Shown: positions 1,419 through 38,575, numbered from the stretch's first letter. The stretch: DNA of 43,367 nt from a virus (IMGVR_UViG_2579778784_000007:1-43367); one strand, 5' to 3'. The notes: a model not told the origin generated them from the letters alone. Made by a program: numbers and translations.

Positions 1419-2489
1419 TTATTTGATTTCAATTTTGTCCCACTCCCTGCCTCTGTCATCACGATACTGTGATGCCATGGTGTCCGACTTATGCCCGAGA
1501 AGATGTTGAGCAAACTTATCGCTTATCTGCTTCTCATAGAGTCTTGCAGACAAACTGCGCAACTCGTGAAAGGTAGGCGGATCCCCTTCGAAGGAAAGAC
1601 CTGATGCTTTTCGTGCGCGCATAAAATACCTTGATACTGTGCCGGATGAAAGCGGTTCACGACGAGTAGATGCAATTATGGTTTCTCCGCCAAGAATCTC
1701 TTTGCATTTATCAAGTGTTTCCTTCATTGATATCCCGAGAGCATCAACATGCAATGTTGTAGGGATGGCAATTTTTACGCCCGTTTTGCTTTGCTCGACA
1801 TAAAGATATCCATCTACGATATCAGACCACTTCATTTCGCATAAATCACCAACTCGCTGCCCGGTAACAACAGCCAGTTCCATTGCAAGTCTTAGCCAAC
1901 ATGGTGATGATTCTGCTGCTTGATAAATTTTCAGGTATTCGTCAGCCGTAAGCCTTGATCTCCTTACCTCTGATTTTGCTGCGCGAGTGGCAGCGACCGG
2001 GTTTGTTGTTATATGGCCTTCAGCTATTGCCTCTCGGAATGCATCGCTCAGTGTTGATCTGATTAACTTGGCTGATGCCGCCTTGCCCTCGTCTATGTAT
2101 CCATTGAGCATTGCCGCAATTTCTTTTGTGGTGATGTCTTCAAGTGGAGCATCAGGCAGACCCCTCCTTATTGCTTTAATTTTGCTCATGTAATTTATGA
2201 GTGTCTTCTGCTTGATTCCTCTGCTGGCGAGTATTTTTTCGTAGCGATCAAGCCATGAATGTAACGTAACAGAATTATCACTGTTGATTCTTGCTGTCAG
2301 AGGCTTGTGTTTGTGTCCTGAGAATAACTCAATGTTTGCCTGTATTGCTTCAGTAATTGCTATCCTCCTGTCTCTGCCTAATCCGAACTCTTTACCCGTC
2401 CTTGGGTCCCTGTAGCAGTAATATCCATTGTTTCTTATATAAAGGTTAGGGGGTAAATCCCGGCGCTCATGACTTCGCCTTCTTCCCAT
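1419..2489 (-). CDS. int: Integrase (tyrosine recombinase), lambda Int
   Basis: 356-aa translation MGRRRSHERRDLPPNLYIRNNGYYCYRDPRTGKEF... matches my recollection of lambda Int essentially along its whole length; adjacent to attL P' arm. Confidence 0.97.
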   Translation of the reverse strand: MGRRRSHERRDLPPNLYIRNNGYYCYRDPRTGKEFGLGRDRRIAITEAIQANIELFSGHKHKPLTARINSDNSVTLHSWLDRYEKILASRGIKQKTLINYMSKIKAIRRGLPDAPLEDITTKEIAAMLNGYIDEGKAASAKLIRSTLSDAFREAIAEGHITTNPVAATRAAKSEVRRSRLTADEYLKIYQAAESSPCWLRLAMELAVVTGQRVGDLCEMKWSDIVDGYLYVEQSKTGVKIAIPTTLHVDALGISMKETLDKCKEILGGETIIASTRREPLSSGTVSRYFMRARKASGLSFEGDPPTFHELRSLSARLYEKQISDKFAQHLLGHKSDTMASQYRDDRGREWDKIEIK

Positions 2490-5669: not shown

Positions 5670-5984
5670 TTAATTTATTCGTATGCCTGCTCTTTCTTCA
5701 TCGAGTTTTTTTAGCTTGTATCGCATAGCTCTTACTGAATAAATTGAGCGGCAGGTTGCAATTGCTATTTCTTCTGCGGAGAACTTACCGAAAAGTGATA
5801 CTTCGGCTCTTGTCCAGCGTCTTCCACGAAGTCGGCTAACAATGTCAGCTCCAATCCTTGTTGCTTTCGCCATTACTGCTTTTTCAGTCCTTTCCAGTTT
5901 TTCAGCGATAACTTCAACTGGCATTGTCGCCGCCACTTCGCGCAAGAAATCGACTTCCCATTTCTCCCATGGAGTCTTTTTCAT
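5670..5984 (-). CDS. Hypothetical protein, possible DNA-binding
   Basis: 104-aa ORF with two internally similar W-containing helical segments; function unknown. Confidence 0.5.
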
Positions 5985-5995
5985 AGGCGATACCG

Positions 5996-6478
5996 TTATT
6001 TGATAAGAAGTGAAGGTTTCCCAACTTTGAGTTGAGCGCCGGGGATATTTATTCCTGCTTTTAGTTGGTGTTTGATTGCCAGTTTGTCGGCTTTAATTGT
6101 CGTTTCAAACTCAACGTATTCAGGAGGAAGGGCGCTTGAGTCGATTATTTCTACAATTTCTGACGGTTTGCGGATTGTTACCTGGTGAATACCTGCTCGG
6201 ATATTTTTCTTGCCAACCATTTCAAGCGATGACGCTATATATGATTTGATGCTGTCAATCTTATTTTGAATTACTGCGGCTCGCTCATTCAGTGACTTTG
6301 CCTCTTCCTTGAGGCGTTCGGCATAACCAGATTCATTTTTAATGACGGAAAGTAGTTGCTCTATTTTATCGGTAAATTCTCCTTCCATACCTTCTATTGT
6401 GTCAGCAATCATCTCTGGTTCTAAATCTGAATCCATCAATTTTGCGTATTCATTGGCTATTTCATACAGTTTGCTCAC
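5996..6478 (-). CDS. Gp157-family protein (recombination-associated; putative host nuclease inhibitor)
   Basis: Acidic helical protein immediately downstream of recT, as is typical for Gp157-family genes. ORF-track start (6484) is TTG abutting the SD; GTG at 6478 lies 6 nt after GGAGG. Confidence 0.55.
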   Translation of the reverse strand: MSKLYEIANEYAKLMDSDLEPEMIADTIEGMEGEFTDKIEQLLSVIKNESGYAERLKEEAKSLNERAAVIQNKIDSIKSYIASSLEMVGKKNIRAGIHQVTIRKPSEIVEIIDSSALPPEYVEFETTIKADKLAIKHQLKAGINIPGAQLKVGKPSLLIK

Positions 6479-7373
6479 TGGCAACCTCCAGTTTCGCTTT
6501 GCATTCTATGTAAATGGCTTGTACGTTCTGCTGCAATTTCATTCCAGATGTCAGGCGATATGCTTCTGCAAAATATCGCTTCAAATCATCCATGTTTTCT
6601 GCCTGAGCCATTTCATCACAAAGAAGTTGTGCTTTATCCATTATTTCCTGCTGGCGTTTCCGTTCATCTTCGCGGATATCTTCCTCTGATTTGTGCGGCA
6701 TAACTGGTTCAGTCCACACACCTTCTTCTTCGTTTAGTACGTGAATAGCACTATCAAGACGTGATGCCTTAGGCCAATACTTGCTTGCACGCTTTACGAC
6801 CGTCTTTCGCGCCATCTCATTCCAGTGATTTACCCATGGTCCTTTATCGCTGAATGCTGCCTTGCTTGTTTTCCTTACAGCCTCAATTTCAGCCAGACTC
6901 ATCTCTTCCGTTAGATAATCACCTGCTGGCGTCTTAACTGTGCAGTAAACGCCAACAATATCACCACGATCACCGAAGGCGTTGTATTTATGGGTTGGTG
7001 CTTTATCAAGCCCGTTTGACTCATAGGTATCGTTAGCATGAACAAGTTTTGCCTGACCCCATGAGATAACACCAGACTCCATTGCAATATGGAGCAATCC
7101 CATATAACTGATATCAAGGCAAACCATGCCGTCGCGCGGAACCAGATAAGCCAGTTTGCTGGCCGGGTTTAAGGTGATGCCGATCGCCGCAACATTGATG
7201 ATGGCGTTCTGTGCACTGGTTGGATTTGCCAGTGCTGTTTTAGCCAGGTAATCATTTTTCTGGAAATACTGAATTGCAAACTGGCTTTCCTTAGCCCATG
7301 TCACCGTCTGTTCAGTCAATGCTCCGCAGAATAACTGCTCCTGCTGTTTAACGAATTCAACGATATTGCTCAT
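6462..7373 (-). CDS. recT: RecT-family single-strand annealing recombinase
   Basis: 303 aa; segment GPWVNHWNEMARKTVVKRASKYWP parallels the conserved RecT motif (GPWVTHWEEMAKKTAIRRLFKYLP in E. coli RecT); occupies the position of lambda bet. Confidence 0.8.
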   Translation of the reverse strand: MSNIVEFVKQQEQLFCGALTEQTVTWAKESQFAIQYFQKNDYLAKTALANPTSAQNAIINVAAIGITLNPASKLAYLVPRDGMVCLDISYMGLLHIAMESGVISWGQAKLVHANDTYESNGLDKAPTHKYNAFGDRGDIVGVYCTVKTPAGDYLTEEMSLAEIEAVRKTSKAAFSDKGPWVNHWNEMARKTVVKRASKYWPKASRLDSAIHVLNEEEGVWTEPVMPHKSEEDIREDERKRQQEIMDKAQLLCDEMAQAENMDDLKRYFAEAYRLTSGMKLQQNVQAIYIECKAKLEVASEQTV

Positions 7374-7681
7374 GCTGCTTCTCCATAAATGTGTCTGCGT
7401 TTGAATATTGCGAAGGCATATTCAGCCTTAACTCTTTCGGTTATTGCATCCCAGAACCATTCAGCGGCTTTTTCCTGATAGTTACAGTCATCATCTTCCA
7501 GCCAGTCGATAGCGTCCTTAGTGTGTTCATCTGGTTTATATGAGCGAAGCATTTCGCTTATTGGGTCGCAACGTTTGCAGAGGCGATCAACTTCACTGTT
7601 AATTCGTTCGTAATCTTCATCAGTAAAACTTGCGATTATTTGCGATATTTCACGCTTATCATTCAGAGTCAGAATCATCAT
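7370..7681 (-). CDS. Hypothetical early-left protein
   Basis: 103-aa ORF, AGGAG SD, ATGA coupling to recT. Confidence 0.5.
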   Translation of the reverse strand: MMILTLNDKREISQIIASFTDEDYERINSEVDRLCKRCDPISEMLRSYKPDEHTKDAIDWLEDDDCNYQEKAAEWFWDAITERVKAEYAFAIFKRRHIYGEAA

Positions 7682-7763
7682 CTTTCTCCTGTTCTTTGTG
7701 CTGATTGAGCATTTTGTTCATCTGACGAATGAATTCTTCGTCTGACCAGTTATCTGTAAAACT

Positions 7764-7916
7764 CATTTCCTGCGATACAACGGAAGGTTGATAGCTGATT
7801 TCATCGCTTTATTTGCTTCAAGCCACATTTTTGAATCACCAATAAATCTGGCTATTACTGCTTTGTTTTGTGCAGCACGAAGCATCTGGTGATTAATGGC
7901 TATTTCATTGCGCATA
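7764..7916 (-). CDS. Small protein in the kil position (Kil-like candidate, 50 aa)
   Basis: Not in ORF track. GGAGG SD then ATG at 7916; MRNEIAINHQMLRAAQNKAVIARFIGDSKMWLEANKAMKSAINLPLYRRK; overlaps the 3' end of the cIII-like ORF as kil overlaps cIII in lambda. Sequence assignment tentative. Confidence 0.3.
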
Positions 7917-8034
7917 ACGCCTCCAGTTGTTTCTTTGCTGCTCTGATTAATTGTTTAACTCGGCGTGATAATTCAGATTCGTGCGGGTAGAAAGCGGACA
8001 TGACGCCGCTACCCGCGAACTGAAAGTGCATCAT
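7900..8034 (-). CDS. cIII: cIII-like protein (FtsH inhibitor candidate, 44 aa)
   Basis: AAGGAG SD 5 nt before ATG at 8034; MMHFQFAGSGVMSAFYPHESELSRRVKQLIRAAKKQLEALCAMK contains an amphipathic-helix motif resembling lambda CIII (ESLLERITRKLRDGWKRLIDIL); position downstream of N matches. Confidence 0.45.
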   Translation of the reverse strand: MMHFQFAGSGVMSAFYPHESELSRRVKQLIRAAKKQLEALCAMK

Positions 8035-8100
8035 GGGTAACTCCTTCTGTTTGATTGCATAACGAAAATGCCTCGAGTGAAGCGTTATTGGTATGCATAT

Positions 8101-8124
8101 AAAAAGGCCCTCACACTGGAGGGC
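8101..8124 (-). terminator. Intrinsic terminator in the pL operon (tL1-like, N-suppressible by analogy)
   Basis: Minus strand GCCCTC-cagtgt-GAGGGC followed by CTTTTTAT; lies between the 156-aa gene and cIII-like ORF. A second 9-bp inverted repeat (GTGTATTCA...TGAATACAC) is at ~8190..8220. Confidence 0.45.
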
Positions 8125-8228
8125 AAAGAAGACTTCCAATAATCAGAACAAGTCGGCTCCTGTTTAGTTACGAGCGACATTGCTCCGTGTATTCACTCGT
8201 TGGAATGAATACACAGTGCTTACTCGTA

Positions 8229-8699
8229 CTAATAAAATACCCAATTTTCTGTTTCTTGGTTGTGCCCAAAGTTATATTCAATATCTGGTGTTGATGTATC
8301 AATATTCTTCATCCCATCAACAAGAGTTGATACAACAGCCAAATCTTGTTTGATTCTCATTAAATGGTATTTCTTCCGGCGCAATAAACTTTCAATGGCA
8401 AGTTTCTTCGTTGGGAATGCAAAAGATCTTTCTGCATTTTTTGCCACTTTCTTAATTGCATATCTATTTCTCTTTTGTTTCCATTCCTGTAACCACTGAT
8501 TTGGTGCTGGTTTAAAATTAACAATCCAATGCGCAGGAACCAACCATGCATAATGCTCTGTCTGATGAAAAGCTATATATTGAAGTGCGAATATTTTGAT
8601 CCCATCTTCTTCAACTGTCGCCTGGAATCTCCAGAAAACAGGCATTCCATCATGTTCAGTTTCTGATTCAGGAAAAGGTACGCTCCATGATTTTGTCAT
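8229..8699 (-). CDS. Hypothetical protein (156 aa), AT-rich accessory gene coupled to N
   Basis: ORF starts 8 nt after the N stop with GAGGTG SD; visibly AT-rich compared with neighbours; no recognisable domain; occupies the ral/sieB region of the lambda map. Confidence 0.6.
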   Translation of the reverse strand: MTKSWSVPFPESETEHDGMPVFWRFQATVEEDGIKIFALQYIAFHQTEHYAWLVPAHWIVNFKPAPNQWLQEWKQKRNRYAIKKVAKNAERSFAFPTKKLAIESLLRRKKYHLMRIKQDLAVVSTLVDGMKNIDTSTPDIEYNFGHNQETENWVFY

Positions 8700-8707
8700 A
8701 TCTCACC

Positions 8708-9034
8708 TCAAATAAGTGGTTTGCTGCCTAATTTCATTTTCTGGCGACCAACACAAGTCACACCCATTTCACTGCGTGGCTTGCTGTACCATGTGCGCTG
8801 ATTCTTGCGCTCAATACGTTGCAGGTTGCTTTCAATCTGTTCGTGGTATTCAGCCAGCACCGTGAGGTCTATCGGATTCAGTGCGCTTTCTACTCGTGAT
8901 TTCGGTTTGCGATTCAGCGAGAGAATAGGGCGGTTAACTGGTTTTGCGCTTACCCCAACCAACAGGGGATTTGCTGCTTTCCATTGAGCCTGTTTCTCTG
9001 CGCGACGTTCGCGGCGGCGTGTTTGTGCATCCAT
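8708..9034 (-). CDS. N: Antitermination protein N
   Basis: MDAQTRRRERRAEKQAQWKAANPLLVGVSAKPVNRPILSLNRKPKSRVESALNPIDLTVLAEYH... matches lambda N including the arginine-rich boxB-binding motif; AGGAG SD. Confidence 0.93.
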   Translation of the reverse strand: MDAQTRRRERRAEKQAQWKAANPLLVGVSAKPVNRPILSLNRKPKSRVESALNPIDLTVLAEYHEQIESNLQRIERKNQRTWYSKPRSEMGVTCVGRQKMKLGSKPLI

Positions 9035-9232
9035 CTGGATTCTCCTGTCAGTTAGCTTTGGTGATTGGATGGCCGGCGCTGAACCCCGGCTTACTGGTTA
9101 GAGCGCCCGCACTACCAGTGACGCTGTCTTGAGGCGCAGATTGGTTACTGCTTGCCATGAGCGCTGTTTATACATTGGTCGAGCATCAGCCTGCTCATTC
9201 ATCCAATCCCAAAGCCTTCTGCTTTGAATGCT

Positions 9233-9263
9233 GCCCTTCTTCAGGGCTAAATTTTTAAGAGCC
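9233..9263 (-). promoter_or_regulatory. nutL: nutL (boxA + boxB) N-utilisation site
   Basis: On minus strand: boxA GCTCTTAAAAA and boxB hairpin AGCCCTGAAGAAGGGCA, as in lambda nutL, between pL and N. Confidence 0.8.
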
Positions 9264-9303
9264 TCACCTTCAATGGTGGTCAGTGCGTCCTGCTGATGGC
9301 TAA

Positions 9304-9332
9304 ATAGTACGATTTGTACTTTATCGAGTCAA
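9304..9332 (-). promoter_or_regulatory. pL promoter with overlapping operator (oL)
   Basis: On minus strand: -35 TTGACT, 17-nt spacer, -10 TACTAT; palindrome AGTAC-N5-GTACT (plus 9306..9320) overlaps spacer and -10; the downstream leader resembles the lambda pL leader (ATCAGCAGGACGCACTGACCACC). Confidence 0.6.
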
Positions 9333-9396
9333 TACAAAATGTTCTAAATATAATTAGTTTTTTATAACGCTTTGTATTTAATGGGTTTATATTTTG

Positions 9397-9425
9397 GAAA
9401 AAGAAAACCCGGCGCTGAGGCCGGG
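9397..9425 (-). terminator. Intrinsic terminator after the cI-operon accessory gene (tIMM-like)
   Basis: Minus strand CCCGGC-ctcagc-GCCGGG perfect 6-bp stem followed by TTTTCTTTTT, 12 nt after the stop of the 348-aa gene. Confidence 0.65.
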
Positions 9426-9436
9426 TTTGGAGTGCA

Positions 9437-10483
9437 TCACTCTGGTTCGCTGGGGAATATATTTATCAATTGCCCTGTTGAAATGTGCCCATTTTCTACA
9501 ACCTCTAGATATGAAATTTCAACAGTTGATTCTTTGGCTACAGCATTCAAAAACTCAAGAAGCTCATCAGTAGATGTTATGTCGGCTGAGGTTTTTATGG
9601 TGAAAGATTCACCATTTGAAACCCTTATGACGTCAATATTTATGTCCTGATTTGTTTCTCCCGAGCGACGAACGCCCGTGACATAAAAGTTATCTCTTCT
9701 AGTTTCCTTTTTTCGATCAATTGATTGTCTTTGGTTTAAGGTATTCAACTGTTCTCTATTTACCACTCTCTGACCAATTGTTACCCTCTCAACTGACGAG
9801 TCTTGAGCAAGCTTTTTAAGCAACTTGCTTTTACCATCCTCGCCGTGAGCCAGAACCTCTCTGCTAATGTTTGTTTGACCGCTAATCAACAACTTGAGCA
9901 CATTGTCTTGTGCTTCGTTTACCGCTTTGGTGCTTTTTTCCACCAATTGCACCTGAGAATCTTGGTCATGTCGCTGTGTTTCGTAGTACTCATTGATCCA
10001 CTTATAGCCTACCGTGCTGGCAGCTAAGACGATAGCGGCGACGGCGCATAGTGCTTGCCTTCCTGTCATTTTGCCTATCGCTTGAGTAAACACTGTCACC
10101 ACTCCGTTTACAATCGGATCTGAGTCACCATCCGCTTGGCTTGAGCCTTCGCTTATTCGGTAGACAATATCCAGCAAACCTTTCTCTGCATCTTTTAGCT
10201 TCTGCCGATTATGAGTGCTGTGACTGACTACCGTAAATGCTTTTTGTATTTCATGCGTAAGCTCTGCCATACCAAAAAGCATTGACGCAGTCAATGAAGA
10301 ATTATATCTATTTGGATCGCCTTTTACATTAATATTGATCTTTGGCCATCCACTGAAAACTACGTTAGGGAATGTGAAGTCGCTTGAGTCGATGTCCTTC
10401 CTTCCGAGCATTTCTGTTACAAAAGATACAAAGTCGTCTTCTGACTTGATAACATATTGCGCAGGTTGATCAATCGCTGACAT
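9437..10483 (-). CDS. Unknown 348-aa protein in the rexA/rexB position downstream of cI (candidate prophage defence/exclusion gene)
   Basis: Starts 25 nt after the cI stop with AAGGA SD, same strand, followed by a strong terminator; central hydrophobic stretch ALCAVAAIVLAASTVGYKWI (about residues 143..162); appears AT-rich; no recognisable motif. Confidence 0.75.
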   Translation of the reverse strand: MSAIDQPAQYVIKSEDDFVSFVTEMLGRKDIDSSDFTFPNVVFSGWPKININVKGDPNRYNSSLTASMLFGMAELTHEIQKAFTVVSHSTHNRQKLKDAEKGLLDIVYRISEGSSQADGDSDPIVNGVVTVFTQAIGKMTGRQALCAVAAIVLAASTVGYKWINEYYETQRHDQDSQVQLVEKSTKAVNEAQDNVLKLLISGQTNISREVLAHGEDGKSKLLKKLAQDSSVERVTIGQRVVNREQLNTLNQRQSIDRKKETRRDNFYVTGVRRSGETNQDINIDVIRVSNGESFTIKTSADITSTDELLEFLNAVAKESTVEISYLEVVENGHISTGQLINIFPSEPE

Positions 10484-10508
10484 TCTTAATCCTTAACATC
10501 CATTCCTA

Positions 10509-11168
10509 TCACCCAAACGTCTCTTCTGGCCACTGGCTGGCGATAACTTTCCCTACAACGGAACAGCTATCATTGCATGGGATCATTGGATATTGCGGGT
10601 TTAGTGGTTGTAGGAACACCTGACCGCTATCCCTGATCAGTTTCTTGAAGGTAAACTCGTCACCACCAAGTCTGGCTATGCAGAAATCACCTGGCTCAAC
10701 AGCCTGCTCAGGGTCAACGAGAATTAACATCCCGTCAGGAAAGCTTGGCTTGGATCCTGTTGGTGCGGTCATGGAATTACCTTCAACTTCAAGCCAGAAC
10801 GCACAATCACTAGCTTTTTTGGTTGTGCTGACCCATCTCTCCGCATCACCTTTGGTAAAGGTTCTAAGCTCAGGCGAGAACATCCCGGCCTGAACATGAG
10901 AAAAAACAGGGTACTCATATTGTTTTTTAACGGGGGCAGATGAGTATTCGCCAACAGGTGAAAATGTACCGTCGTGGTTGAATGAGACGTTATCAATACC
11001 AAGGTATTTAAACACCACACCAATCTCGTCAAGAGATGGATGACGAGATCCGCGCAACCAGTGACCAATTCCACCCTGCGTCATACCAAGCTCTTCAGCT
11101 AACTTCTCTTGAGTTATGCCGAGCTCTTTCATTCTGGATCTAGCCAGTTCATACCATTTCATTTTCAT
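10509..11168 (-). CDS. cI: cI repressor (hybrid: non-lambda N-terminal HTH domain + lambda-like C-terminal S24 autopeptidase/dimerisation domain)
   Basis: C-terminal ~130 aa ([39 protein letters not shown]...[12 protein letters not shown]...FTFKKLIRD...) nearly match lambda CI as I recall it; the N-terminal ~80 aa are a different HTH_XRE domain. ORF-track start at 11210 is TTG; first ATG is 11168, and a better-spaced ATG lies at 11162. Confidence 0.9.
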
Positions 11169-11224
11169 ACCCTTATTATTACGCTCTGTACTAAAACCAT
11201 CCATGCACAAGATGTATTTTTTGT

Positions 11225-11253
11225 TTGCATTCTAAAAGTACATATCGTATTAT
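11225..11253 (+). promoter_or_regulatory. pR promoter with overlapping operator (oR)
   Basis: -35 TTGCAT (11225..11230), 17-nt spacer, -10 TATTAT (11248..11253); operator-like AGTACATATCGTATT (11238..11252) resembles the oL palindrome AGTACAAATCGTACT. Confidence 0.55.
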
Positions 11254-11279
11254 TGTTTCATGGTTACTATGGAGGGCAT

Positions 11280-11495
11280 ATGAGCAACCTACGAAAATAT
11301 CGAGAGTCACTGAATATCTCTCAAACAACACTTGCTAAGGCAGTTGGATGCACACAGGGAGCTATCGGACATTGGGAATCTGGTCGTCGCTTCCCAGACC
11401 TTAAAACATGCCGTGCTCTTGTTGAGTGCCTAAACAAGTTAGGCGCAAAAGTCAGTCTTGATGACGTGTTCCCGCCGGAACACAAAGCCGCTTAA
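11280..11495 (+). CDS. cro: Cro-like repressor (HTH_XRE)
   Basis: 71 aa from ATG at 11280 with GGAGGG SD; divergent from cI; recognition-helix region TQGAIGHW closely resembles the cI N-domain TQGGIGHW, consistent with shared operators. Confidence 0.8.
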   Translation: MSNLRKYRESLNISQTTLAKAVGCTQGAIGHWESGRRFPDLKTCRALVECLNKLGAKVSLDDVFPPEHKAA

Positions 11496-11503
11496 GACAT
11501 TCC

Positions 11504-11535
11504 CGCTCTTACACATCCCAGCCCTGAAAAAGGGC
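11504..11535 (+). promoter_or_regulatory. nutR: nutR (boxA CGCTCTTA + boxB GCCCTGAAAAAGGGC)
   Basis: CGCTCTTACACATCCCAGCCCTGAAAAAGGGC, essentially the lambda nutR sequence, between cro and cII. Confidence 0.85.
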
Positions 11536-11614
11536 ATCAAATTAAACCACACCTATGGTGTATGCATTTATTTGCATACATTCAATCAATTGTTATCTAA
11601 GGAAATACTTACAT

Positions 11615-11893
11615 ATGCAACTTACAAGTACTCGCAAGAAAGCGAATGCAATTACAAGCAACATCCTGAATCGAATTGCTGTACGTGGTCAGCGAAAGGT
11701 TGCTGACGCGTTAGGAATTAATGAATCGCAAATTTCGCGATGGAAAGACAGCTTCATCCCAAAAATGGGAATGCTTCTGGCTGTTCTTGAATGGGGTGTT
11801 GAAGACGAGGAGTTGGCGGAACTGGCTAAGAAAGTAGCCAGAATGCTGACAAAAGAAAAAGCCCCGAAGAACGGCGAATTCTTCGAGGCCTGA
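11615..11893 (+). CDS. cII: cII transcriptional activator
   Basis: 92 aa from ATG at 11615; SQISRWK...MLLAVLEWGV motif matches lambda CII; the leader resembles the lambda cII leader. Confidence 0.85.
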   Translation: MQLTSTRKKANAITSNILNRIAVRGQRKVADALGINESQISRWKDSFIPKMGMLLAVLEWGVEDEELAELAKKVARMLTKEKAPKNGEFFEA

Positions 11894-11927
11894 TGTAGAA
11901 AGACTGGATCAATCCACAGGAGTAATT

Positions 11928-12089
11928 ATGACAAAACGTCGTAAGAAATACCAGGAAAAAGAAGAGATTCGACACCCTGATTCACCTGAGGGATTAGTGG
12001 TAGCCGCAGCAAATAACAGGGCGTTCGCAGAGCGCCTTGTTGGTGTTTACAGACTAGCCAAAGCAGGAGTGAAACATGGGCGTCGTTAA
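11928..12089 (+). CDS. Small hypothetical protein (53 aa)
   Basis: Not in ORF track; ATG at 11928 with GGAG SD; basic N-terminus MTKRRKKYQEKEE.... Confidence 0.35.
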   Translation: MTKRRKKYQEKEEIRHPDSPEGLVVAAANNRAFAERLVGVYRLAKAGVKHGRR

Positions 12090-12138
12090 GTTAGCTGATT
12101 ACAGGCATAACCCTGTACAACATCAGGAGGCATCCAGT

Positions 12139-13032
12139 ATGGGGTATGTCTCTATACACCGCCAGTTTATGGACAGCAGGCTCTATAAGGACTCTCAGGC
12201 AGTACATCTTTGGCTTCACTTAATCCTCAAGGCTAATCACGAATCTACTGTCGTCAATACGGATATCGGTCCGATAACTGTTGATCGCGGTCAGATGATA
12301 ACTGGACGCCCGTCGCTGGTCAGAGAAACATTCATCCCCGACAACAAAGTTAGGAGCTTATTACGGACTTTTGAGTCGAAAGGGATGCTTAATATTTGCT
12401 CGATTGGGAAGAAATTTAGCCTGTTTACAATCGTTAAATATGACGATTTTCAGGCAAAAAATTGTCCAACGGTTGTCCAACGGTTGTCCAACGCAAACAC
12501 CAGTAATGGCGCGGCTCTCAGCGGAGATTGTCCAACGGTTGTCCAACGGTTGTCCAACGCAAACACCAGTAATGGCGCGGCTCTCAGCGGAGATTGTCCA
12601 ACGGTTGTCCAACGGTTGTCCATAAACAATAATATAAATAATATCTCTAATACTGACGTATTAGAGAGTGCCACAGCAGACAAAAAGTCTGACAAGAAAA
12701 AACCTTCCGTCAGCTGTCAGGATGTTGTCGATGCTTACCACGAAATCCTTCCTGAAGCGCCAAGAATCCGCGCACTGAATGACAAGCGTAAAAACCAGAT
12801 CCGAACGTTCTGGCGCAAAGCCGGAGTGATAACCCGCCAGCTTGACGGGCATGGGTTCACGATGCAGGACTGGAGAAATTATTTGAGCTACGTTGGCGAA
12901 AATTGCCGATGGATGTTCGAAGAGCGCCCAAACCATCAACGCGGAACCGTCTGGCACAAAAAGGGATTTGATTTCCTGCTTAACGACAATACCTACCTGA
13001 AAGTTCGTGAGGGTGAACACGATGACCGATAA
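12139..13032 (+). CDS. Replication initiator / replisome organiser (O-like, P22 gene 18 type) containing origin iterons
   Basis: Start chosen at ATG 12139 (AGGAGG SD, 8-nt spacing); N-terminal HTH-like domain, an iteron-encoded 22-aa tandem repeat, conserved C-terminal domain; immediately followed by a DnaB-like helicase. Confidence 0.72.
   Translation: MGYVSIHRQFMDSRLYKDSQAVHLWLHLILKANHESTVVNTDIGPITVDRGQMITGRPSLVRETFIPDNKVRSLLRTFESKGMLNICSIGKKFSLFTIVKYDDFQAKNCPTVVQRLSNANTSNGAALSGDCPTVVQRLSNANTSNGAALSGDCPTVVQRLSINNNINNISNTDVLESATADKKSDKKKPSVSCQDVVDAYHEILPEAPRIRALNDKRKNQIRTFWRKAGVITRQLDGHGFTMQDWRNYLSYVGENCRWMFEERPNHQRGTVWHKKGFDFLLNDNTYLKVREGEHDDR
12472..12625 (+). repeat. ori: Origin-like iteron array: 11-bp unit TTGTCCAACGG in a 66-bp higher-order tandem repeat, followed by an AT-rich stretch
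   Basis: Read directly: three 11-bp units + 33-bp spacer, repeated twice and partially a third time; adjacent AT-rich segment 12622..12670; embedded within the initiator gene as in lambda ori. Confidence 0.7.
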
Positions 13033-14458
13033 TTTTTATGCGCCGCCCCATAGCATCGAGGCAGAGCAGGCGGTGATTGGTGGATTGCTTCTGGATGATG
13101 ACAGCAGTGAGCGCGTCCGGAAAGTTCTGGCGATGCTGAAGCCTGATTCATTTTACAGCCGACCACACAAAATCCTTTTCGAAGAAATAACCAGAATGCA
13201 CCGGGAACAAAAGCCAGTAGATGGCCTGACGCTTTTCGATGAACTGGAGCGTAAATCGTTAACGGCGTCTGTTGGCGGTTTTGCTTATATCGCTGAGATC
13301 GCAAAGAACACGCCAAGCGCAGCAAACATCGTTGCCTATGCAATGCAGGTTCGTGAAACCGCAATGGAACGCTACGCCATCAACCGCATGACTGAAGCGA
13401 CGGAATTGCTCTATTCCCGCAACGGAATGACTGCAACGCAGAAGTACGAAGCTATTCAGGCGATTTTCACGCAACTGACAGACCATGCAAAAACCGGATC
13501 GCGTCGCGGCCTTCGCTCATTTGGTGAGGTCATGGAAGACTGGGTTAGCGACCTTGAGAAGCGATTTGACCCGTCAGGCGAACAACGAGGAATGAGCACG
13601 GGGATCCCATCGCTGGACAGGATGCTGTCACCGAAAGGTCTGGTGAAAGGCTCTCTGTTTGTCATTGGCGCTCGCCCTAAGATGGGGAAAACGACGCTAT
13701 ACAGCCAGATGGCAATCAACTGTGCAGTGCATGAGAAAAAGCCTGCTCTGATGTTCAGCCTTGAAATGCCAGGTGACCAGATACTGGAAAAACTGGTAGG
13801 GCAGAAGTCTGGTGTTAACCCGAATATTTTTTACCTTCCGGCGACAAATGACGCTGATGACGGCTATCAGGGTGATTACGATGGTGACTTCAACAGGGCG
13901 ATCGAAACAGCCAATCGCTTGAGTGAAATCGACATGCTTTACATCGACGACACGCCGGGATTATCTCTGGCTCAAATCGTCAGCGAAAGCCGTCGAATCA
14001 AGCGAGAAAAAGGATGTGTTGGCATGATTCTGGTCGATTACCTGACACTAATGACTGCTGAGAAGGCCGATCGCAACGACCTTGCTTACGGCATGATCAC
14101 CAAAGGACTGAAGAACCTTGCCAAAGAGCTTGATTGCGTTGTTGTGCTTCTGACACAGCTTAACCGCGCACTGGAAAGCCGAACCAATAAACGCCCATTA
14201 CCAAGTGACTCACGAGATACAGGGCAGATTGAACAGGATTGCGATTATTGGGTGGGGATCCATCGTGAAGGTGCTTTTGATGACAGTGTTCCTCCTGGTG
14301 AAACCGAACTAATCCTTCGTCTCAATCGTCATGGCAATACCGGCACGGTGTATTGCATTCAGGCAAATGGCGCTATTTATGACACAGACCAACAGTCTGC
14401 TGAAATGCGCCGACGTGAACGAGAGGAACCGCAGTCCAAGAAGAAAGGAGGATTCTGA
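13022..14458 (+). CDS. DnaB-family replicative helicase (P22 gene 12 type)
   Basis: 478 aa from ATG 13022; N-terminal DnaB-like domain (IEAEQAVIGGLL), Walker A GARPKMGKTT, Walker B region ILVDYLTLM. Confidence 0.85.
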   Translation: MTDNFYAPPHSIEAEQAVIGGLLLDDDSSERVRKVLAMLKPDSFYSRPHKILFEEITRMHREQKPVDGLTLFDELERKSLTASVGGFAYIAEIAKNTPSAANIVAYAMQVRETAMERYAINRMTEATELLYSRNGMTATQKYEAIQAIFTQLTDHAKTGSRRGLRSFGEVMEDWVSDLEKRFDPSGEQRGMSTGIPSLDRMLSPKGLVKGSLFVIGARPKMGKTTLYSQMAINCAVHEKKPALMFSLEMPGDQILEKLVGQKSGVNPNIFYLPATNDADDGYQGDYDGDFNRAIETANRLSEIDMLYIDDTPGLSLAQIVSESRRIKREKGCVGMILVDYLTLMTAEKADRNDLAYGMITKGLKNLAKELDCVVVLLTQLNRALESRTNKRPLPSDSRDTGQIEQDCDYWVGIHREGAFDDSVPPGETELILRLNRHGNTGTVYCIQANGAIYDTDQQSAEMRRREREEPQSKKKGGF

Positions 14459-14486
14459 TGACCATCTACATCACTGAGCTAATAAC

Positions 14487-14518
14487 AGGCCTGCTGGTAA
14501 TCGCAGGCCTTTTTATTT
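14487..14518 (+). terminator. Intrinsic terminator (lambda tR2-like)
   Basis: AGGCCTGC-tggtaatc-GCAGGCCT followed by TTTTTATTT between the helicase and ninB. Confidence 0.7.
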
Positions 14519-14534
14519 GGGGGAGAGGGAAGTC

Positions 14535-14975
14535 ATGAAAAAACTAACCTTTGAAATTCGATCTCCAGCACATCAGCAAAACGCTATTCACGCAGTACAG
14601 CAAATCCTTCCAGACCCAACCAAACCAATCGTAGTAACCATTCAGGAACGCAACCGCAGCTTAGACCAAAATAGGAAGCTATGGGCCTGCTTAGGTGACG
14701 TCTCTCGTCAGGTTGAATGGCATGGTCGCTGGCTGGATGCAGAAAGCTGGAAGTGTGTGTTTACCGCAGCATTAAAGCAGCAGGACGTTGTTCCTAACCT
14801 TGCCGGGAATGGCTTTGTGGTAATAGGCCAGTCAACCAGCAGGATGCGTGTAAGCGAATTTGCGGAGCTATTAGAGCTTATACAGGCATTCGGTACAGAG
14901 CGTGGCGTTAAGTGGTCAGACGAAGCGCGACTGGCTCTCGAATGGAAAGCGCGATGGGGAGATCGGGCTGCATGA
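14535..14975 (+). CDS. ninB: NinB (Orf-family recombination mediator)
   Basis: 146 aa MKKLTFEIRSPAHQQNAIHAVQQILPDPTKPIVVTIQERNRSLDQNRKLWACLGD... matches lambda NinB. Confidence 0.9.
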   Translation: MKKLTFEIRSPAHQQNAIHAVQQILPDPTKPIVVTIQERNRSLDQNRKLWACLGDVSRQVEWHGRWLDAESWKCVFTAALKQQDVVPNLAGNGFVVIGQSTSRMRVSEFAELLELIQAFGTERGVKWSDEARLALEWKARWGDRAA

Positions 14976-35388: not shown

Positions 35389-35874
35389 TTATCTAATGTT
35401 GCTGCTACTGTTGCATGTGACGGTATTTCCAAATCCTGAATTGCAGTTTGTATAGGTGTCAACACGCGTTGGGTAAGGTTGAGTTATAACAGGCTGTCTC
35501 GCTTTTTGCTCGATCGCTTGCATTGTGTTTACAGCCTGATAATTCAATAAAGCCTGCTGGAATGCTTGGCTTTGTGCTATTTGTTGGGCTTGTTCTTGGC
35601 TTTGTAATTGAACATAAAGATTCTGAAGCTCAAGTCTTGCCTGTGCGTCACTTATCTTGCCTTCATCGACACCTTGCCCGAGCATCTTCGCAGCAAGGAC
35701 ATACAGCTTAGGTGTTGGTGCTGATGCCATGCGTGAGTCGTTCTTCACGCTGGCATCAAGGCAATTAGCCATATCACTAAGCTTTGGATAGCGTTGTTCG
35801 CAACTTGCCTGATAGTCGCTTACTTTTGCGCACCCAGCCAGCAGAAGCGGGATAATTAACAGTGATTTTTTCAT
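35389..35874 (-). CDS. Predicted lipoprotein (candidate superinfection-exclusion factor)
   Basis: 161 aa; signal peptide with lipobox LLAGC; AAGGAGAG SD; encoded antisense to the virion genes in the position of P22 sieA. Confidence 0.7.
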   Translation of the reverse strand: MKKSLLIIPLLLAGCAKVSDYQASCEQRYPKLSDMANCLDASVKNDSRMASAPTPKLYVLAAKMLGQGVDEGKISDAQARLELQNLYVQLQSQEQAQQIAQSQAFQQALLNYQAVNTMQAIEQKARQPVITQPYPTRVDTYTNCNSGFGNTVTCNSSSNIR

Positions 35875-37072: not shown

Positions 37073-37951
37073 ATGAAAAGTATAGCAAAGGCACAAAACG
37101 ATTTCACCATCTTCAAATTCGGCGACAGTGAAATCCGCGTCATCAACAAGTGCGGTGAGCCGTGGTTTGTAGCTAAAGATGTTTGTGATGCTTTAGCTTT
37201 GACTAACTCACGCAAGGCGCTTACTGCACTTGATGACGATGAAAAGGGAGTAACTTTAAGTTACACCCTTGGTGGTGAGCAGAATCTAAGCATTGTTAGC
37301 GAATCAGGTATGTATACATTGGTTCTGCGCTGCCGCGATGCTGTCAATAAAGGTTCGGTCCCGCACAAATTCCGCAAGTGGGTAACAGCAGAAGTTCTAC
37401 CTTCAATTCGCAAACATGGCGAGTATGTGAAAGGCAAGAAAACCACTGTTGAGGAAAGAACGCCGCTACGCGATGCAGTAAACATGCTGGTAGGAAAGAA
37501 AGGACTTCGCTATGACGATGCATACAATATGGTTCATCAGCGTTTTGGTATTGACAGCATTGATGAACTTTCAATTGAACAAATCCCGCTTGCCGTAGAG
37601 TACATCCACAGGGTAGTGCTTGAAGGTGAGTTCATTGGCAAACAAGAGAAGAAGACCAACGAGCTTTCTGCAAAAGAAGCAAACAGTCTTGTATGGTTAT
37701 GGGATTATGCCAACCGTTCACAGGCATTATTCCGCGAACTGTATCCGGCATTAAAACAAATTCAATCGAACTATTCCGGCAGATGCTACGACTACGGTCA
37801 TGAATTCTCGTATGTTATCGGAATGGCGAGAGACGTTTTAATAAACCACACACGAGATGTTGATATTAATGAGCCAGACGGACCAGCGAATCTTTCCGCA
37901 TGGATGAGACTTAAGAATAAAGAATTACCTCCTTCAGTACATAACTACTGA
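37073..37951 (+). CDS. ant: Antirepressor Ant (Bro-N domain)
   Basis: 292 aa; N-terminal Bro-N-like domain ([28 protein letters not shown]...); downstream of arc as in P22 immI. Confidence 0.82.
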
Positions 37952-38061: not shown

Positions 38062-38562
38062 TTACCTACTCAACAGATGGTCAGCAACCATGTTTGCTGC
38101 CTTATAAGCTATAGCCGCTTCATCAATGGTGTTGAATCTCCCAAGGGTTATGTTTTTACCTGAGACATTTATCTGAGCTTGCCATTGATTTCTGGCTTGA
38201 CAGAAAGTTACCCCCTTGATTCCAGCATTGCTATTTCGAGGTCCGACATTTAATGCATTTACGACTCTGCTGACATCCCTAAGGTTTGAGATTGCGTTAT
38301 TTCTTCTGTTTCTATCAATGTGGTCAATCTCTTGTTTGGGCCATTCGCCATATACATACAGCCAGGCAAGTCTATGTGCAAAATATCTTACGCCATCAAT
38401 ATTAATTGCGTTATATCCATAAGAAATTGTGCCAGCAACTTTCCCAACAGCACCTCTGGCGCTTAATTTCTTTTTCCAAGTGAAAATTCCTGTTTCTTTA
38501 TTGTAATCGAGAACCTCCATAAGGCGCTCCCGAGTTACTACCTCGTGACGTCTCTTACTCAT
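38062..38562 (-). CDS. HNH homing endonuclease with AP2-like domain (copy 2)
   Basis: 166 aa from ATG 38562 (GGAG SD; ORF-track start 38604); HNH motif [19 protein letters not shown]; [13 protein letters not shown] segment parallels copy 1; encoded antisense at the tailspike 5' end. Confidence 0.7.
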
Positions 38563-38575
38563 TATTTTCTCCGGA

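What the first reader, a model, noticed from the sequence alone, without database searches (positions are those of the whole stretch)
9397..10508. Unrecognisable 348-aa gene in the rexAB immunity-region slot, co-transcribed with cI: candidate novel prophage defence/exclusion system
In lambda, rexA-rexB sit directly downstream of cI in the pRM transcript, and this slot is a known hotspot for prophage-encoded anti-phage cargo in lambdoid phages. Here the slot holds a single 348-aa ORF (9437..10483), 25 nt after the cI stop with its own SD and closed off by a strong terminator (9397..9425). The protein has no motif I can recognise, a central ~20-residue hydrophobic stretch (possible single membrane anchor) and basic/coiled-coil-like C-terminal region; the DNA looks AT-rich relative to its neighbours. 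Expression from the lysogen's repressor operon and a membrane-associated architecture fit an abortive-infection or exclusion effector, but the function is inference.
Basis: partly seen in the sequence, partly recalled or inferred. Interest (0 to 1): 0.85.

Follow-up and report, generated by a model that had tools for sequence, protein, structure and literature searches.

The report
Unknown membrane gene beside prophage repressor
A P22-like E. coli prophage carries, right behind its repressor gene, a 348-residue membrane protein from a large uncharacterised family that always sits in prophage cargo slots and is probably, though not provably here, an anti-phage protein.

Summary
Window 9437..10483 (-) is a 348-aa gene 25 nt after the cI stop. 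It has a Shine-Dalgarno site and is followed by a strong terminator, inside the OL/pL-to-OR immunity region, where lambda carries rexAB.

A sibling phage has the same cI and the same terminator but no gene. The gene is therefore a clean 1.09-kb insertion.

The protein has no Pfam, NCBIfam, PADLOC or PDB relative. It belongs to PHROG 6191 ("unknown function"), which has 932 representatives in an exhaustive search.

The predicted architecture is a conserved N-domain with no known fold, one hydrophobic helix, a variable helical linker and a C-terminal OB-fold barrel.

Relatives lie behind at least ten different S24 repressors. Others sit at prophage ends beside att sites, integrases or tail-fibre genes. 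One identical Yersinia protein occupies both kinds of slot. dN/dS is about 0.04.

The exact protein (WP_001272876.1) is listed as an untested "predicted novel defense gene" in DefensePredictor Table S10.

The GenBank label "T2SS GspM" on distant relatives is not supported.

Best reading: a lysogen-expressed, membrane-anchored, single-gene anti-phage cargo gene (a "moron"), probably blocking phage entry. Function and topology remain inferred.

The parts
9437..10483 (-). 348-aa gene: member of PHROG 6191, identical to RefSeq WP_001272876.1 and to phage phi458 Orf11
   Evidence: dN/dS is 0.04 against the 87%-identical copy in L018.
10064..10483 (-). Residues 1-140: conserved alpha/beta N-domain. 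Motifs are F-x-GWP, INVKG, RYxSSLT, LDIVYxISEGSS, and KMTGRQ just before the helix. Predicted cytoplasmic.
9995..10063 (-). Residues 141-163: single hydrophobic helix, predicted membrane anchor
   Evidence: Kyte-Doolittle 1.72. Position is conserved but sequence is not: it starts at about residue 131 in distant members, which have no second hydrophobic segment. Flanking charges favour N-in/C-out in 26 of 26 Enterobacterales members but are ambiguous in distant members.
9716..9994 (-). Residues 164-256: low-confidence linker, two long helices (182-227), then a beta-hairpin and a short helix. This is the most variable part.
   Evidence: highest dN, 0.117.
9455..9715 (-). Residues 257-343: C-terminal OB-fold beta-barrel, acidic (pI 4.7)
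10490..10494 (-). Shine-Dalgarno AAGGA, 6 nt upstream of the ATG, inside the 25-nt gap after cI
   Evidence: Read directly from the sequence.
9395..9428 (-). Intrinsic terminator closing the cI operon (stem 9405-9428, T-run 9395-9404). It belongs to the phage backbone, not to the inserted gene.
   Evidence: It is shared with the gene-less sibling phage vB_EcoP-683R2, with one compensatory G-C to A-T change, and is 90% identical in HK544.
9428..10514 (.). 1087-nt inserted cassette relative to sibling phage vB_EcoP-683R2, which has 36 unrelated nt between the cI stop and the terminator
   Evidence: Homology to ON470594 stops at window 9427 and resumes at 10515.
10509..11168 (-). cI-type repressor (HTH plus S24 peptidase); start codon uncertain. 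Presumed source of transcription (pRM) for the 348-aa gene.
   Evidence: phrog_4 transcriptional repressor, 7e-62. RefSeq calls it 'LexA family protein'.
9303..9332 (-). pL-like promoter (TTGACT-17-TACTAT) overlapping an OL operator. The operator's partner is at OR, 11235-11254.
   Evidence: (inverted repeat I4).
9229..9248 (-). nutL boxB hairpin (partner nutR boxB at 11520-11539), marking the start of the pL/N operon just beyond the cassette
   Evidence: I3, 90% complementary. N gene at 8708..9034.

Best explanation
The gene is a self-contained prophage cargo gene (a 'moron') inserted between the repressor gene cI and the operon's terminator. It is therefore transcribed with cI from pRM in every lysogenic cell. 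This step is inferred from geometry.

Its product is a single-pass membrane protein. For this clade the likely topology is a conserved ~140-residue N-domain in the cytoplasm, with a variable helical stalk and an acidic OB-fold barrel in the periplasm. This comes from prediction, not experiment.

The most likely job is single-gene protection of the lysogen against other phages. The favoured mechanism acts at the envelope. The periplasmic stalk and barrel would interfere with an incoming phage's genome-delivery apparatus, or with the host component that apparatus uses. The conserved N-domain would anchor, oligomerise or couple the protein to an inner-membrane partner. This is inference by analogy with P22 SieA, HK97 gp15 and SNIPE.

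What is shown: the gene is real and under strong purifying selection. It moves among prophage cargo slots as one gene. It matches no known family.
For: Operon geometry:
- 25-nt gap after cI, a Shine-Dalgarno site, and no terminator until the shared one.

Clean presence or absence:
- vB_EcoP-683R2 has cI at 99% identity and the pL/terminator region at 95%, but 36 nt where this phage has 1087 nt. HK544 has a different two-gene cargo before the same terminator.

Slot conservation:
- Relatives sit directly behind different S24 or lambda-type repressors in L018, L027, L034, L043, PhiR12_2, mEp332, L049, L062 and L061. L061 is so distant that it matches only through the N-half.
- Other relatives sit at prophage ends next to att sites, integrase, DinI or tail-fibre genes.
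- An identical Yersinia protein occupies both kinds of slot.
- Carriers include podo-, sipho- and myo-type prophages.

Selection and variability:
- dN/dS is 0.04.
- The C-terminal part is far more variable than the N-domain. It is unrecognisable in 38 of 135 distant full-length members.

Literature:
- The cI-to-N interval is a recognised hotspot that holds rexAB and bstA (PMC8585504).
- A validated membrane defence gene, DS-34, also sits behind a cI gene (PMC13092281).
- DefensePredictor lists this exact protein as 'Predicted novel defense gene', log-odds 6.86 against a cut-off of 4. The reported validation rate is 45% of 94 tested units.
Against: - There is no phenotype, no expression data and no localisation data.
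- No homology to any defence family: PADLOC gave 0 hits for the protein and only scattered single weak hits among 40 relatives.
- The DefensePredictor score is mid-range. The model also sees neighbouring genes, so it is not independent of the context argument.
- The most conserved part is the N-domain, which a purely periplasmic blocker would not need.
- The positive-inside signal is ambiguous outside Enterobacterales, so the periplasmic placement of the OB domain is not secure.
- The prophage-end slots also host virulence and fitness cargo.
- AlphaFold2 confidence is only moderate (mean pLDDT 66-68).
Confidence: 0.4

Rival explanations
1. Abortive-infection effector. The protein sits inertly in the inner membrane. 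When the conserved cytoplasmic N-domain senses a phage product, the protein oligomerises through its helical region and depolarises or permeabilises the membrane. The infected cell dies before the phage matures. This would be a one-protein equivalent of RexA/RexB or AbiZ.
For: It occupies the same slot as rexAB and bstA, both abortive systems. DS-34, a validated AbiZ-like membrane protein, also lies behind a cI gene. The N-domain is conserved and probably cytoplasmic, and there is a single hydrophobic helix plus long helices that could oligomerise.
Against: About half of the protein is a folded domain beyond the helix, which a pore-former does not need. There is only one moderately hydrophobic helix (KD 1.72). 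No similarity to RexB, AbiZ or DS-34 was found. No toxicity hint or antitoxin partner is present in the window.
Confidence: 0.15
2. Lysogenic-conversion factor unrelated to phages. The envelope protein would change host physiology, for example stress or antibiotic tolerance, surface properties, colonisation or biofilm. It would benefit the lysogen in its niche, as Bor, Lom or prophage-borne effectors do.
For: Many copies sit in the tail-fibre-to-att end slot, which typically carries such cargo. Periplasmic OB folds such as CusF/SilF, YgiW and toxin B subunits bind metals or glycans rather than phage parts. Deleting prophage phi458, which carries the identical gene, changed biofilm and virulence of an avian E. 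coli, though no gene was singled out (PMC9701743).
Against: The recurrent position behind the repressor, across many repressor types and great sequence distance, is the signature of the known immunity-region defence genes. The family is spread over many hosts and niches, including Shewanella, Pasteurella and metagenomes. The machine-learning call is 'defence'.
Confidence: 0.25
3. A function in the phage's own life cycle. For example, it could tune maintenance or induction of lysogeny from the membrane, as proposed for RexA/RexB in the lysogenic-to-lytic transition. Or it could protect the lysogen from its own lysis or ejection proteins.
For: It is co-expressed with the repressor. Lambda RexAB has such a secondary role (bioRxiv 10.1101/2021.04.19.439022, listed).
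Against: Sibling phages with the same immunity region lack the gene and are viable isolated phages. The gene also sits far from any repressor, and in phages with unrelated switches and virion types. An acidic membrane protein is unlikely to act on the switch DNA.
Confidence: 0.08
4. A type II secretion or pilus assembly component (GspM-like), as the GenBank records PV340541-PV340554 label the distant relatives in mEp332 and PhiR12 phages.
For: The GenBank product name is 'T2SS GspM containing protein'. Both are bitopic proteins with one transmembrane helix.
Against: Profile comparison of the family with E. coli GspM gives probability 1%, and only the hydrophobic helix aligns. Against GspL it gives 0.15%. 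No Pfam T2SSM hit appears in any of about 50 members scanned. No secretion genes are nearby.
Confidence: 0.02

Closest known systems
Lambda RexA/RexB (immunity-region abortive-infection system)
   Same: It uses the same genomic slot, between cI and the OL/pL region, on the pRM transcript and closed by a terminator. It is expressed in lysogens, dispensable for the phage, and includes a membrane component.
   Different: Rex is two genes, and RexB has four transmembrane helices. Here there is one gene with one helix. PADLOC and PHROG searches found no sequence similarity.
BstA of Salmonella prophage BTP1 (PMC8585504)
   Same: It is a single gene directly downstream of the prophage repressor, with conserved synteny across diverse Gram-negative prophages, and it is terminator-closed.
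   Different: BstA is a soluble DNA-replication-site protein with a KilA-N domain and a DNA self-immunity element, aba. No KilA-N or other Pfam hit was found here, and this protein is membrane-anchored.
P22 SieA and HK97 gp15 (inner-membrane superinfection-exclusion proteins)
   Same: They are single prophage-expressed inner-membrane proteins that block DNA entry. This is the mechanism favoured here. The carrier here is itself a P22-like phage.
   Different: SieA is 162-164 aa with three transmembrane helices and the motif FxRYPxEAxxFNK (PMC10883804). It lies near the ejection-protein genes, not behind the repressor. The present protein is 348 aa with one helix, two folded domains and no such motif. 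Its role as a membrane exclusion protein is from general knowledge, and no annotated exclusion family in PHROGs matched the present protein.
DS-34 (cI plus AbiZ-like membrane protein; DefensePredictor, PMC13092281)
   Same: It is an experimentally validated defence gene immediately downstream of a prophage cI gene, of similar length (323 aa), with a coiled-coil and a membrane segment.
   Different: The sequences are unrelated (hhalign probability 0.16%). DS-34 has its coiled-coil at the N-terminus and its membrane segment at 184-237, and it resembles AbiZ/DUF6161.
SNIPE / PD-lambda-1 (PMC13190303)
   Same: It is a single-pass inner-membrane, single-gene direct defence that acts at the site of phage genome injection.
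   Different: [quoted passage not shown] No nuclease or DUF4041 signal was found here, and the domain order and fold differ.
PHROG 6191
   Same: The protein and all 40 divergent relatives tested match this family over their full length.
   Different: The family carries no function or name, so membership says only that it is a recurrent phage-borne protein.

Membership tests
PHROG 6191 (phage protein family, unknown function) | Full-length match to the family profile | tested here: met
   E = 5.8e-36 over residues 7-342 of 348. All 40 divergent relatives match, best 1.2e-106.
Lambda RexAB | Location in the cI (pRM) operon between cI and OL/pL | tested here: met
Lambda RexAB | Two-gene system with sequence homology to RexA and to RexB (a multi-pass membrane protein) | tested here: not met
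   There is a single gene. PADLOC gave no hits for the window protein or the family, on the assumption that PADLOC includes Rex models. There is one hydrophobic segment only.
BstA | KilA-N-type domain; gene downstream of the repressor | tested here: not met
   The position criterion is met, but no Pfam domain appears at E <= 1 apart from two non-significant hits. The aba element was not examined.
P22-type SieA | About 160-200 aa, three or four predicted transmembrane helices, motif FxRYPxEAxxFNK (PMC10883804) | tested here: not met
   348 aa, one hydrophobic helix. The motif is absent from the translated sequence.
T2SS GspM (Pfam T2SSM); the label used in GenBank for distant relatives | Profile similarity to GspM beyond the transmembrane helix | tested here: not met
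   hhalign probability is 1% with 19 aligned columns, all in the helix. No Pfam hit in any member.
AbiZ-like DS-34 | Sequence or profile similarity to DS-34 (WP_000377448.1) | tested here: not met
   hhalign probability 0.16%.
SNIPE (PD-lambda-1) | N-terminal transmembrane helix plus DUF4041 plus GIY-YIG nuclease | tested here: not met
   Neither domain was detected. The hydrophobic helix here is central, not N-terminal.
OB fold (C-terminal domain only) | Five-stranded closed beta-barrel superposable on known OB domains | tested here: met
Moron (Hendrix-type prophage cargo unit) | Present or absent between otherwise near-identical phages; base composition differs from the flanks | tested here: met
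   A 1087-nt insertion against vB_EcoP-683R2. G+C is 42.0% against 47.0%.
Moron (Hendrix-type prophage cargo unit) | Own promoter and own terminator | tested here: inconclusive
   In the window the gene borrows pRM and the backbone terminator. In end-slot copies a terminator follows the gene (L050) but no convincing sigma-70 consensus lies upstream.
Anti-phage defence gene (functional class) | Reduces phage plating or plaque size when expressed | not testable with these tools
   Only a prediction exists: DefensePredictor Table S10, log-odds 6.86. The protein is not among the 94 tested units, and no family motif occurs in the tested sequences.
Anti-phage defence gene (functional class) | Enrichment next to known defence genes (defence islands) | tested here: inconclusive
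   Nearly all of about 60 contexts are prophage cargo slots rather than defence islands. One Shewanella copy lies near a TIR_2/WD40 pair and a DUF2726 gene.

The most novel reading that the evidence does not exclude
The protein founds a large, unnamed class of single-gene transmembrane immune receptors. A hypervariable periplasmic stalk and OB module would recognise an incoming phage's tail-tip or ejection proteins, or the envelope damage they cause, while the genome is still outside the cytoplasm. A conserved cytoplasmic domain of novel fold would then execute or relay the response. That would be outside-in sensing of phage entry across the inner membrane. No characterised single-protein defence system does this with such an architecture.
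Probability: 0.12. Interest if true: 0.85.

Novelty: new variant of a known kind. Interest (0 to 1): 0.6.

Why it matters
[quoted passage not shown] It has already yielded RexAB, BstA and DS-34.

This gene fills that slot in about 0.3% of complete E. coli genomes (18 of 5426). Its family has over 900 clusters at 50% identity across Gammaproteobacteria and metagenomes. It has no Pfam model, no name, no structure and no experiment.

If it is an anti-phage protein, it adds a widespread single-gene system with a new fold. It would also matter for predicting the host range of therapeutic phages. Its architecture, a conserved inner domain with a variable outer domain, would be an easily tested case of recognition at the envelope.

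If it is not defensive, it is still a common lysogenic-conversion envelope protein whose role is unknown. The test is cheap: one 1.1-kb clone and a phage panel.

Tried and rejected
Domain and structure searches that found nothing:
- Pfam, NCBIfam and PADLOC on the protein found nothing significant.
- Pfam on 9 and then 40 divergent relatives found no shared family.
- PADLOC on the 40 relatives gave only isolated weak hits.
- PDB sequence-profile searches with two alignments found nothing meaningful.
- Foldseek against the PDB on the full model gave nothing at E <= 0.001, only weak OB-fold and other matches.
- The AlphaFold-database Foldseek library was unavailable.

Labels and weak hits rejected:
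- The GspM/GspL label was tested and rejected.
- DS-34 was tested and found unrelated.
- The weak Pfam hits FtsH_ext and fvmX3-analog (E 0.16-0.9) were treated as noise.

Literature searches:
- Searches for mEp332, phi458, PhiR12, GspM with lambdoid, and the accession found no study of the gene.
- The phi458 paper does not mention it.
- The Genome Research lambdoid paper does not cover it.
- The Brenes and Laub 2025 prophage-defence paper could not be read. A test of a family member there cannot be excluded.

Other ideas dropped:
- I took the 161-aa ORF at the P22 sieA position to be SieA. It is a lipoprotein instead.
- I considered that the OB domain binds DNA in the cytoplasm. This is disfavoured by its acidity and by the topology prediction for this clade, but it is not excluded.
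- I considered the DUF2767 small ORF as an obligatory partner. It is rejected for this window because it is absent here and in most loci.

Full report
**What is in the sequence**

The window is a P22-like (Lederbergvirus-type) E. coli prophage. It has an integrase at 1419-2489 (-), an anti-repressor at 37073-37951 and a tailspike at 38576-41059.

Its immunity region, read on the minus strand, runs in this order:
- OR/pRM (operator 11235-11254);
- cI (10509 to about 11168);
- a 25-nt gap;
- a 348-codon ORF (10483 down to 9437);
- a hairpin terminator (stem 9428-9405 plus T-run);
- OL and a pL-like promoter (9332-9304);
- nutL boxB (9229-9248);
- N (9034-8708).

The gap carries AAGGA 6 nt before the ATG. 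The terminator folds at -19.9 kcal/mol, z = -5.2.

G+C of the ORF is 42.0%, against 47.0% for cI and for the whole window.

**The gene is an insertion into a cargo slot**

Phage vB_EcoP-683R2 has the same cI (99% identity) and the same pL/terminator region (95% identity). Homology stops at window 9427 and resumes at 10515. In between, that phage has 36 unrelated bases where this one has 1087.

The terminator is therefore part of the backbone. It differs from the sibling's copy by one compensatory G-C to A-T pair, which argues that the hairpin is functional.

HK544 keeps a 90%-identical terminator but carries two other unknown genes in the slot. Phage 2B8 has an NYN-domain gene there.

Published work already calls the cI-to-N interval a mosaic hotspot that houses rexAB and bstA (PMC8585504).

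**What the protein is**

Database searches:
- Pfam, NCBIfam and PADLOC give nothing significant.
- The only family match is PHROG 6191, 'unknown function', over the full length.
- PDB sequence profiles give nothing.

An AlphaFold2 model built from 26 relatives (mean pLDDT 66) shows four parts:
- an alpha/beta N-domain, residues 8-138;
- a hydrophobic helix, 141-163;
- a poorly predicted linker followed by two long helices, 182-227;
- a confident beta-barrel, 257-343, pLDDT 82-89.

Distant relatives in mEp332 and the PhiR12 phages are labelled 'T2SS GspM containing protein' in GenBank. Profile comparison with E. coli GspM aligns only the hydrophobic helix (probability 1%), and comparison with GspL aligns nothing. 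That label should be dropped.

**Topology**

All 26 Enterobacterales members have 2-3 Lys/Arg and 0-1 acidic residues just before the helix. Just after it they have about 1 Lys/Arg and 3-4 acidic residues, plus an aromatic belt. There is no signal peptide.

This predicts a cytoplasmic N-domain with a periplasmic stalk and barrel.

In 135 distant full-length representatives the hydrophobic segment is always single and always near residue 131. The charge bias there is ambiguous, however. I treat the topology as likely for this clade, not as settled.

**The family and where it lives**

The word-indexed search found 56 relatives, all 'hypothetical', across Enterobacterales. The exhaustive profile search found 932 cluster representatives at E <= 0.001 and 573 at E <= 1e-10. 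Almost all are 310-400 aa, and those checked carry no name beyond 'hypothetical protein'. They extend to Shewanella, a Pasteurella phage and metagenomes. All 40 divergent members tested fall in PHROG 6191.

The N-domain is detectable in 147 of 148 top representatives. The C-terminal part is detectable in 97 of 135 full-length ones, and the helical linker in 16. The family is therefore a conserved N-domain and helix joined to a fast-evolving or replaceable C-terminal part.

About 60 genomic contexts were examined. They fall into four groups:
1. Directly behind an S24 or lambda-type repressor and divergent from cro. This covers the window and its identical copies, L018, L027, L034, L043, PhiR12_2, mEp332, L049, L062, and the very distant L061.
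2. At a prophage end, between host genes or an att site and tail-fibre, DinI or invertase genes.
3. Between a host gene and the integrase.
4. Inside a baseplate module, or in small chromosomal islands.

One identical Yersinia protein occurs both behind cI and at a prophage end.

Carriers include podo-, sipho- and myo-type prophages, so the function is not tied to a virion type. The gene is always alone. A small convergent DUF2767 ORF follows it in 8 loci but not here.

Comparison of the window gene with an 87%-identical copy gives dN/dS of about 0.04, with the highest dN in the linker. A few copies are frameshifted or cut by an IS element.

In complete E. coli genomes, 18 of 5426 carry the gene at >= 99% identity.

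**Prior knowledge about this very protein**

RefSeq names it WP_001272876.1, 'hypothetical protein'. No paper in the searchable library mentions the accession in its text.

It does appear in Table S10 of DefensePredictor (Science 2026, PMC13092281). It is listed as 'Predicted novel defense gene', with mean log-odds 6.86 against a cut-off of 4 and no homology to known defence proteins.

It was not among the 94 units tested, and no family motif occurs in the tested sequences. That study validated 45% of tested units, and the validation rate rose with score.

Its DS-34 is a validated membrane defence gene behind a cI gene. It is unrelated in sequence.

**Interpretation**

Shown:
- It is a real gene under purifying selection.
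- It is horizontally mobile as a single gene.
- It was inserted into the repressor operon of this prophage.
- It belongs to a large unnamed family.
- It has a novel N-domain, one hydrophobic helix and a C-terminal OB fold.

Inferred:
- It is co-transcribed with cI, on geometry alone.
- It is located in the inner membrane with an N-in/C-out topology.
- It has an anti-phage function.

Within 'anti-phage', I favour interference with genome entry at the envelope. Half of the protein is a folded, rapidly diverging domain predicted to face the periplasm, and the known single-gene membrane factors of temperate phages work there (SieA, gp15, SNIPE).

An abortive membrane effector, a phage-unrelated envelope conversion factor, and a role in the phage's own cycle all remain open. 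Their weights are given in the rivals section.

**Novelty**

The kind of thing is well known: defence or exclusion cargo in the repressor operon. The protein family is not. It has no fold, domain or sequence link to any characterised system, apart from the generic OB fold of its C-terminal domain. The only published mention found is one line in a supplementary prediction table. I rate it a new variant of a known kind, of moderate-to-high interest, with a cheap decisive experiment.

Noticed in passing
window 35389-35874 (-): A 161-aa ORF with a classical lipoprotein signal (MKKSLLIIPLLLAGC), PHROG 6067 'unknown function'. It lies between the ejection-protein genes and ant, where P22 carries sieA. 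It is not SieA-like (no three transmembrane helices) and may be another lysogen-expressed envelope cargo gene.
   Followed up: partly
window 38062-38604 (-): An HNH endonuclease ORF (phrog_99, 1e-63) between ant and the tailspike gene. Its coordinates overlap the tailspike start (38576) on the opposite strand. It may be a homing endonuclease insertion.
   Followed up: no
window 12076-13032 (+), repeats at roughly 12450-12640: The O-like replication protein contains three tandem copies of a ~22-residue unit (…CPTVVQRLSNANTSNGAALSGD…). These are presumably the origin iterons embedded in the gene, as in lambda O.
   Followed up: no
L018 2513-2839, L020 1807-2013, L025 4064-4354, L027 5166-5372, L043 5082-5288, L049/L051 7074-7361, L062 8055-8270 (all minus strand in locus orientation): A small ORF (annotated at about 68-71 aa; longest reading frames up to about 108 aa), convergent with the family gene, lies directly downstream of it in 8 related loci. 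The L062 copy carries Pfam DUF2767; the other seven were linked to it by sequence similarity. Seven of the loci are repressor slots and one is a prophage-end slot. The ORF is absent from the window. It is unclear whether it is a partner or just backbone.
   Followed up: partly
L049/L051 versus L050 (Yersinia enterocolitica genomes): The identical 340-aa family protein P0059 sits behind a cI/S24 repressor in one prophage and at a prophage end beside two DinI genes and the tail-tip J gene in another. This is direct evidence of recent movement between cargo slots.
   Followed up: yes
window 9405-9428 versus L047 (vB_EcoP-683R2) about 2278-2301: The operon terminator differs between the two phages by a compensatory pair (arm GGC/GCC versus GAC/GTC), which preserves the hairpin.
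   Followed up: yes
L048 (HK544) 1423-2262: HK544 carries two different unknown genes in the same cI-to-terminator slot: HK544_040 (phrog_12602, unknown) and HK544_041. Phage 2B8 carries an NYN-domain gene there. The slot's cargo is diverse and mostly uncharacterised.
   Followed up: partly
L056 (Shewanella mesophila CP080421) 5966-14864: A distant family member stands alone in a chromosomal variable region. A DUF2726 gene is next to it, and a TIR_2 plus WD40/beta-propeller gene pair lies about 4 kb away. This was the only defence-island-like context seen.
   Followed up: no
window 8229-8699 (-): A 156-aa ORF just downstream of N in the pL operon, PHROG 1636 'unknown function', shared with sibling phages.
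   Followed up: no
L025 3060-4108 and L040 1270-2300; L026 20-352 and 1580-2416: Some family copies are decayed. Two are split by frameshifts. One lacks its N-terminus and lies downstream of an IS3-type transposase fragment. This matches several 279-281-aa database entries that start at the internal Met68.
   Followed up: partly
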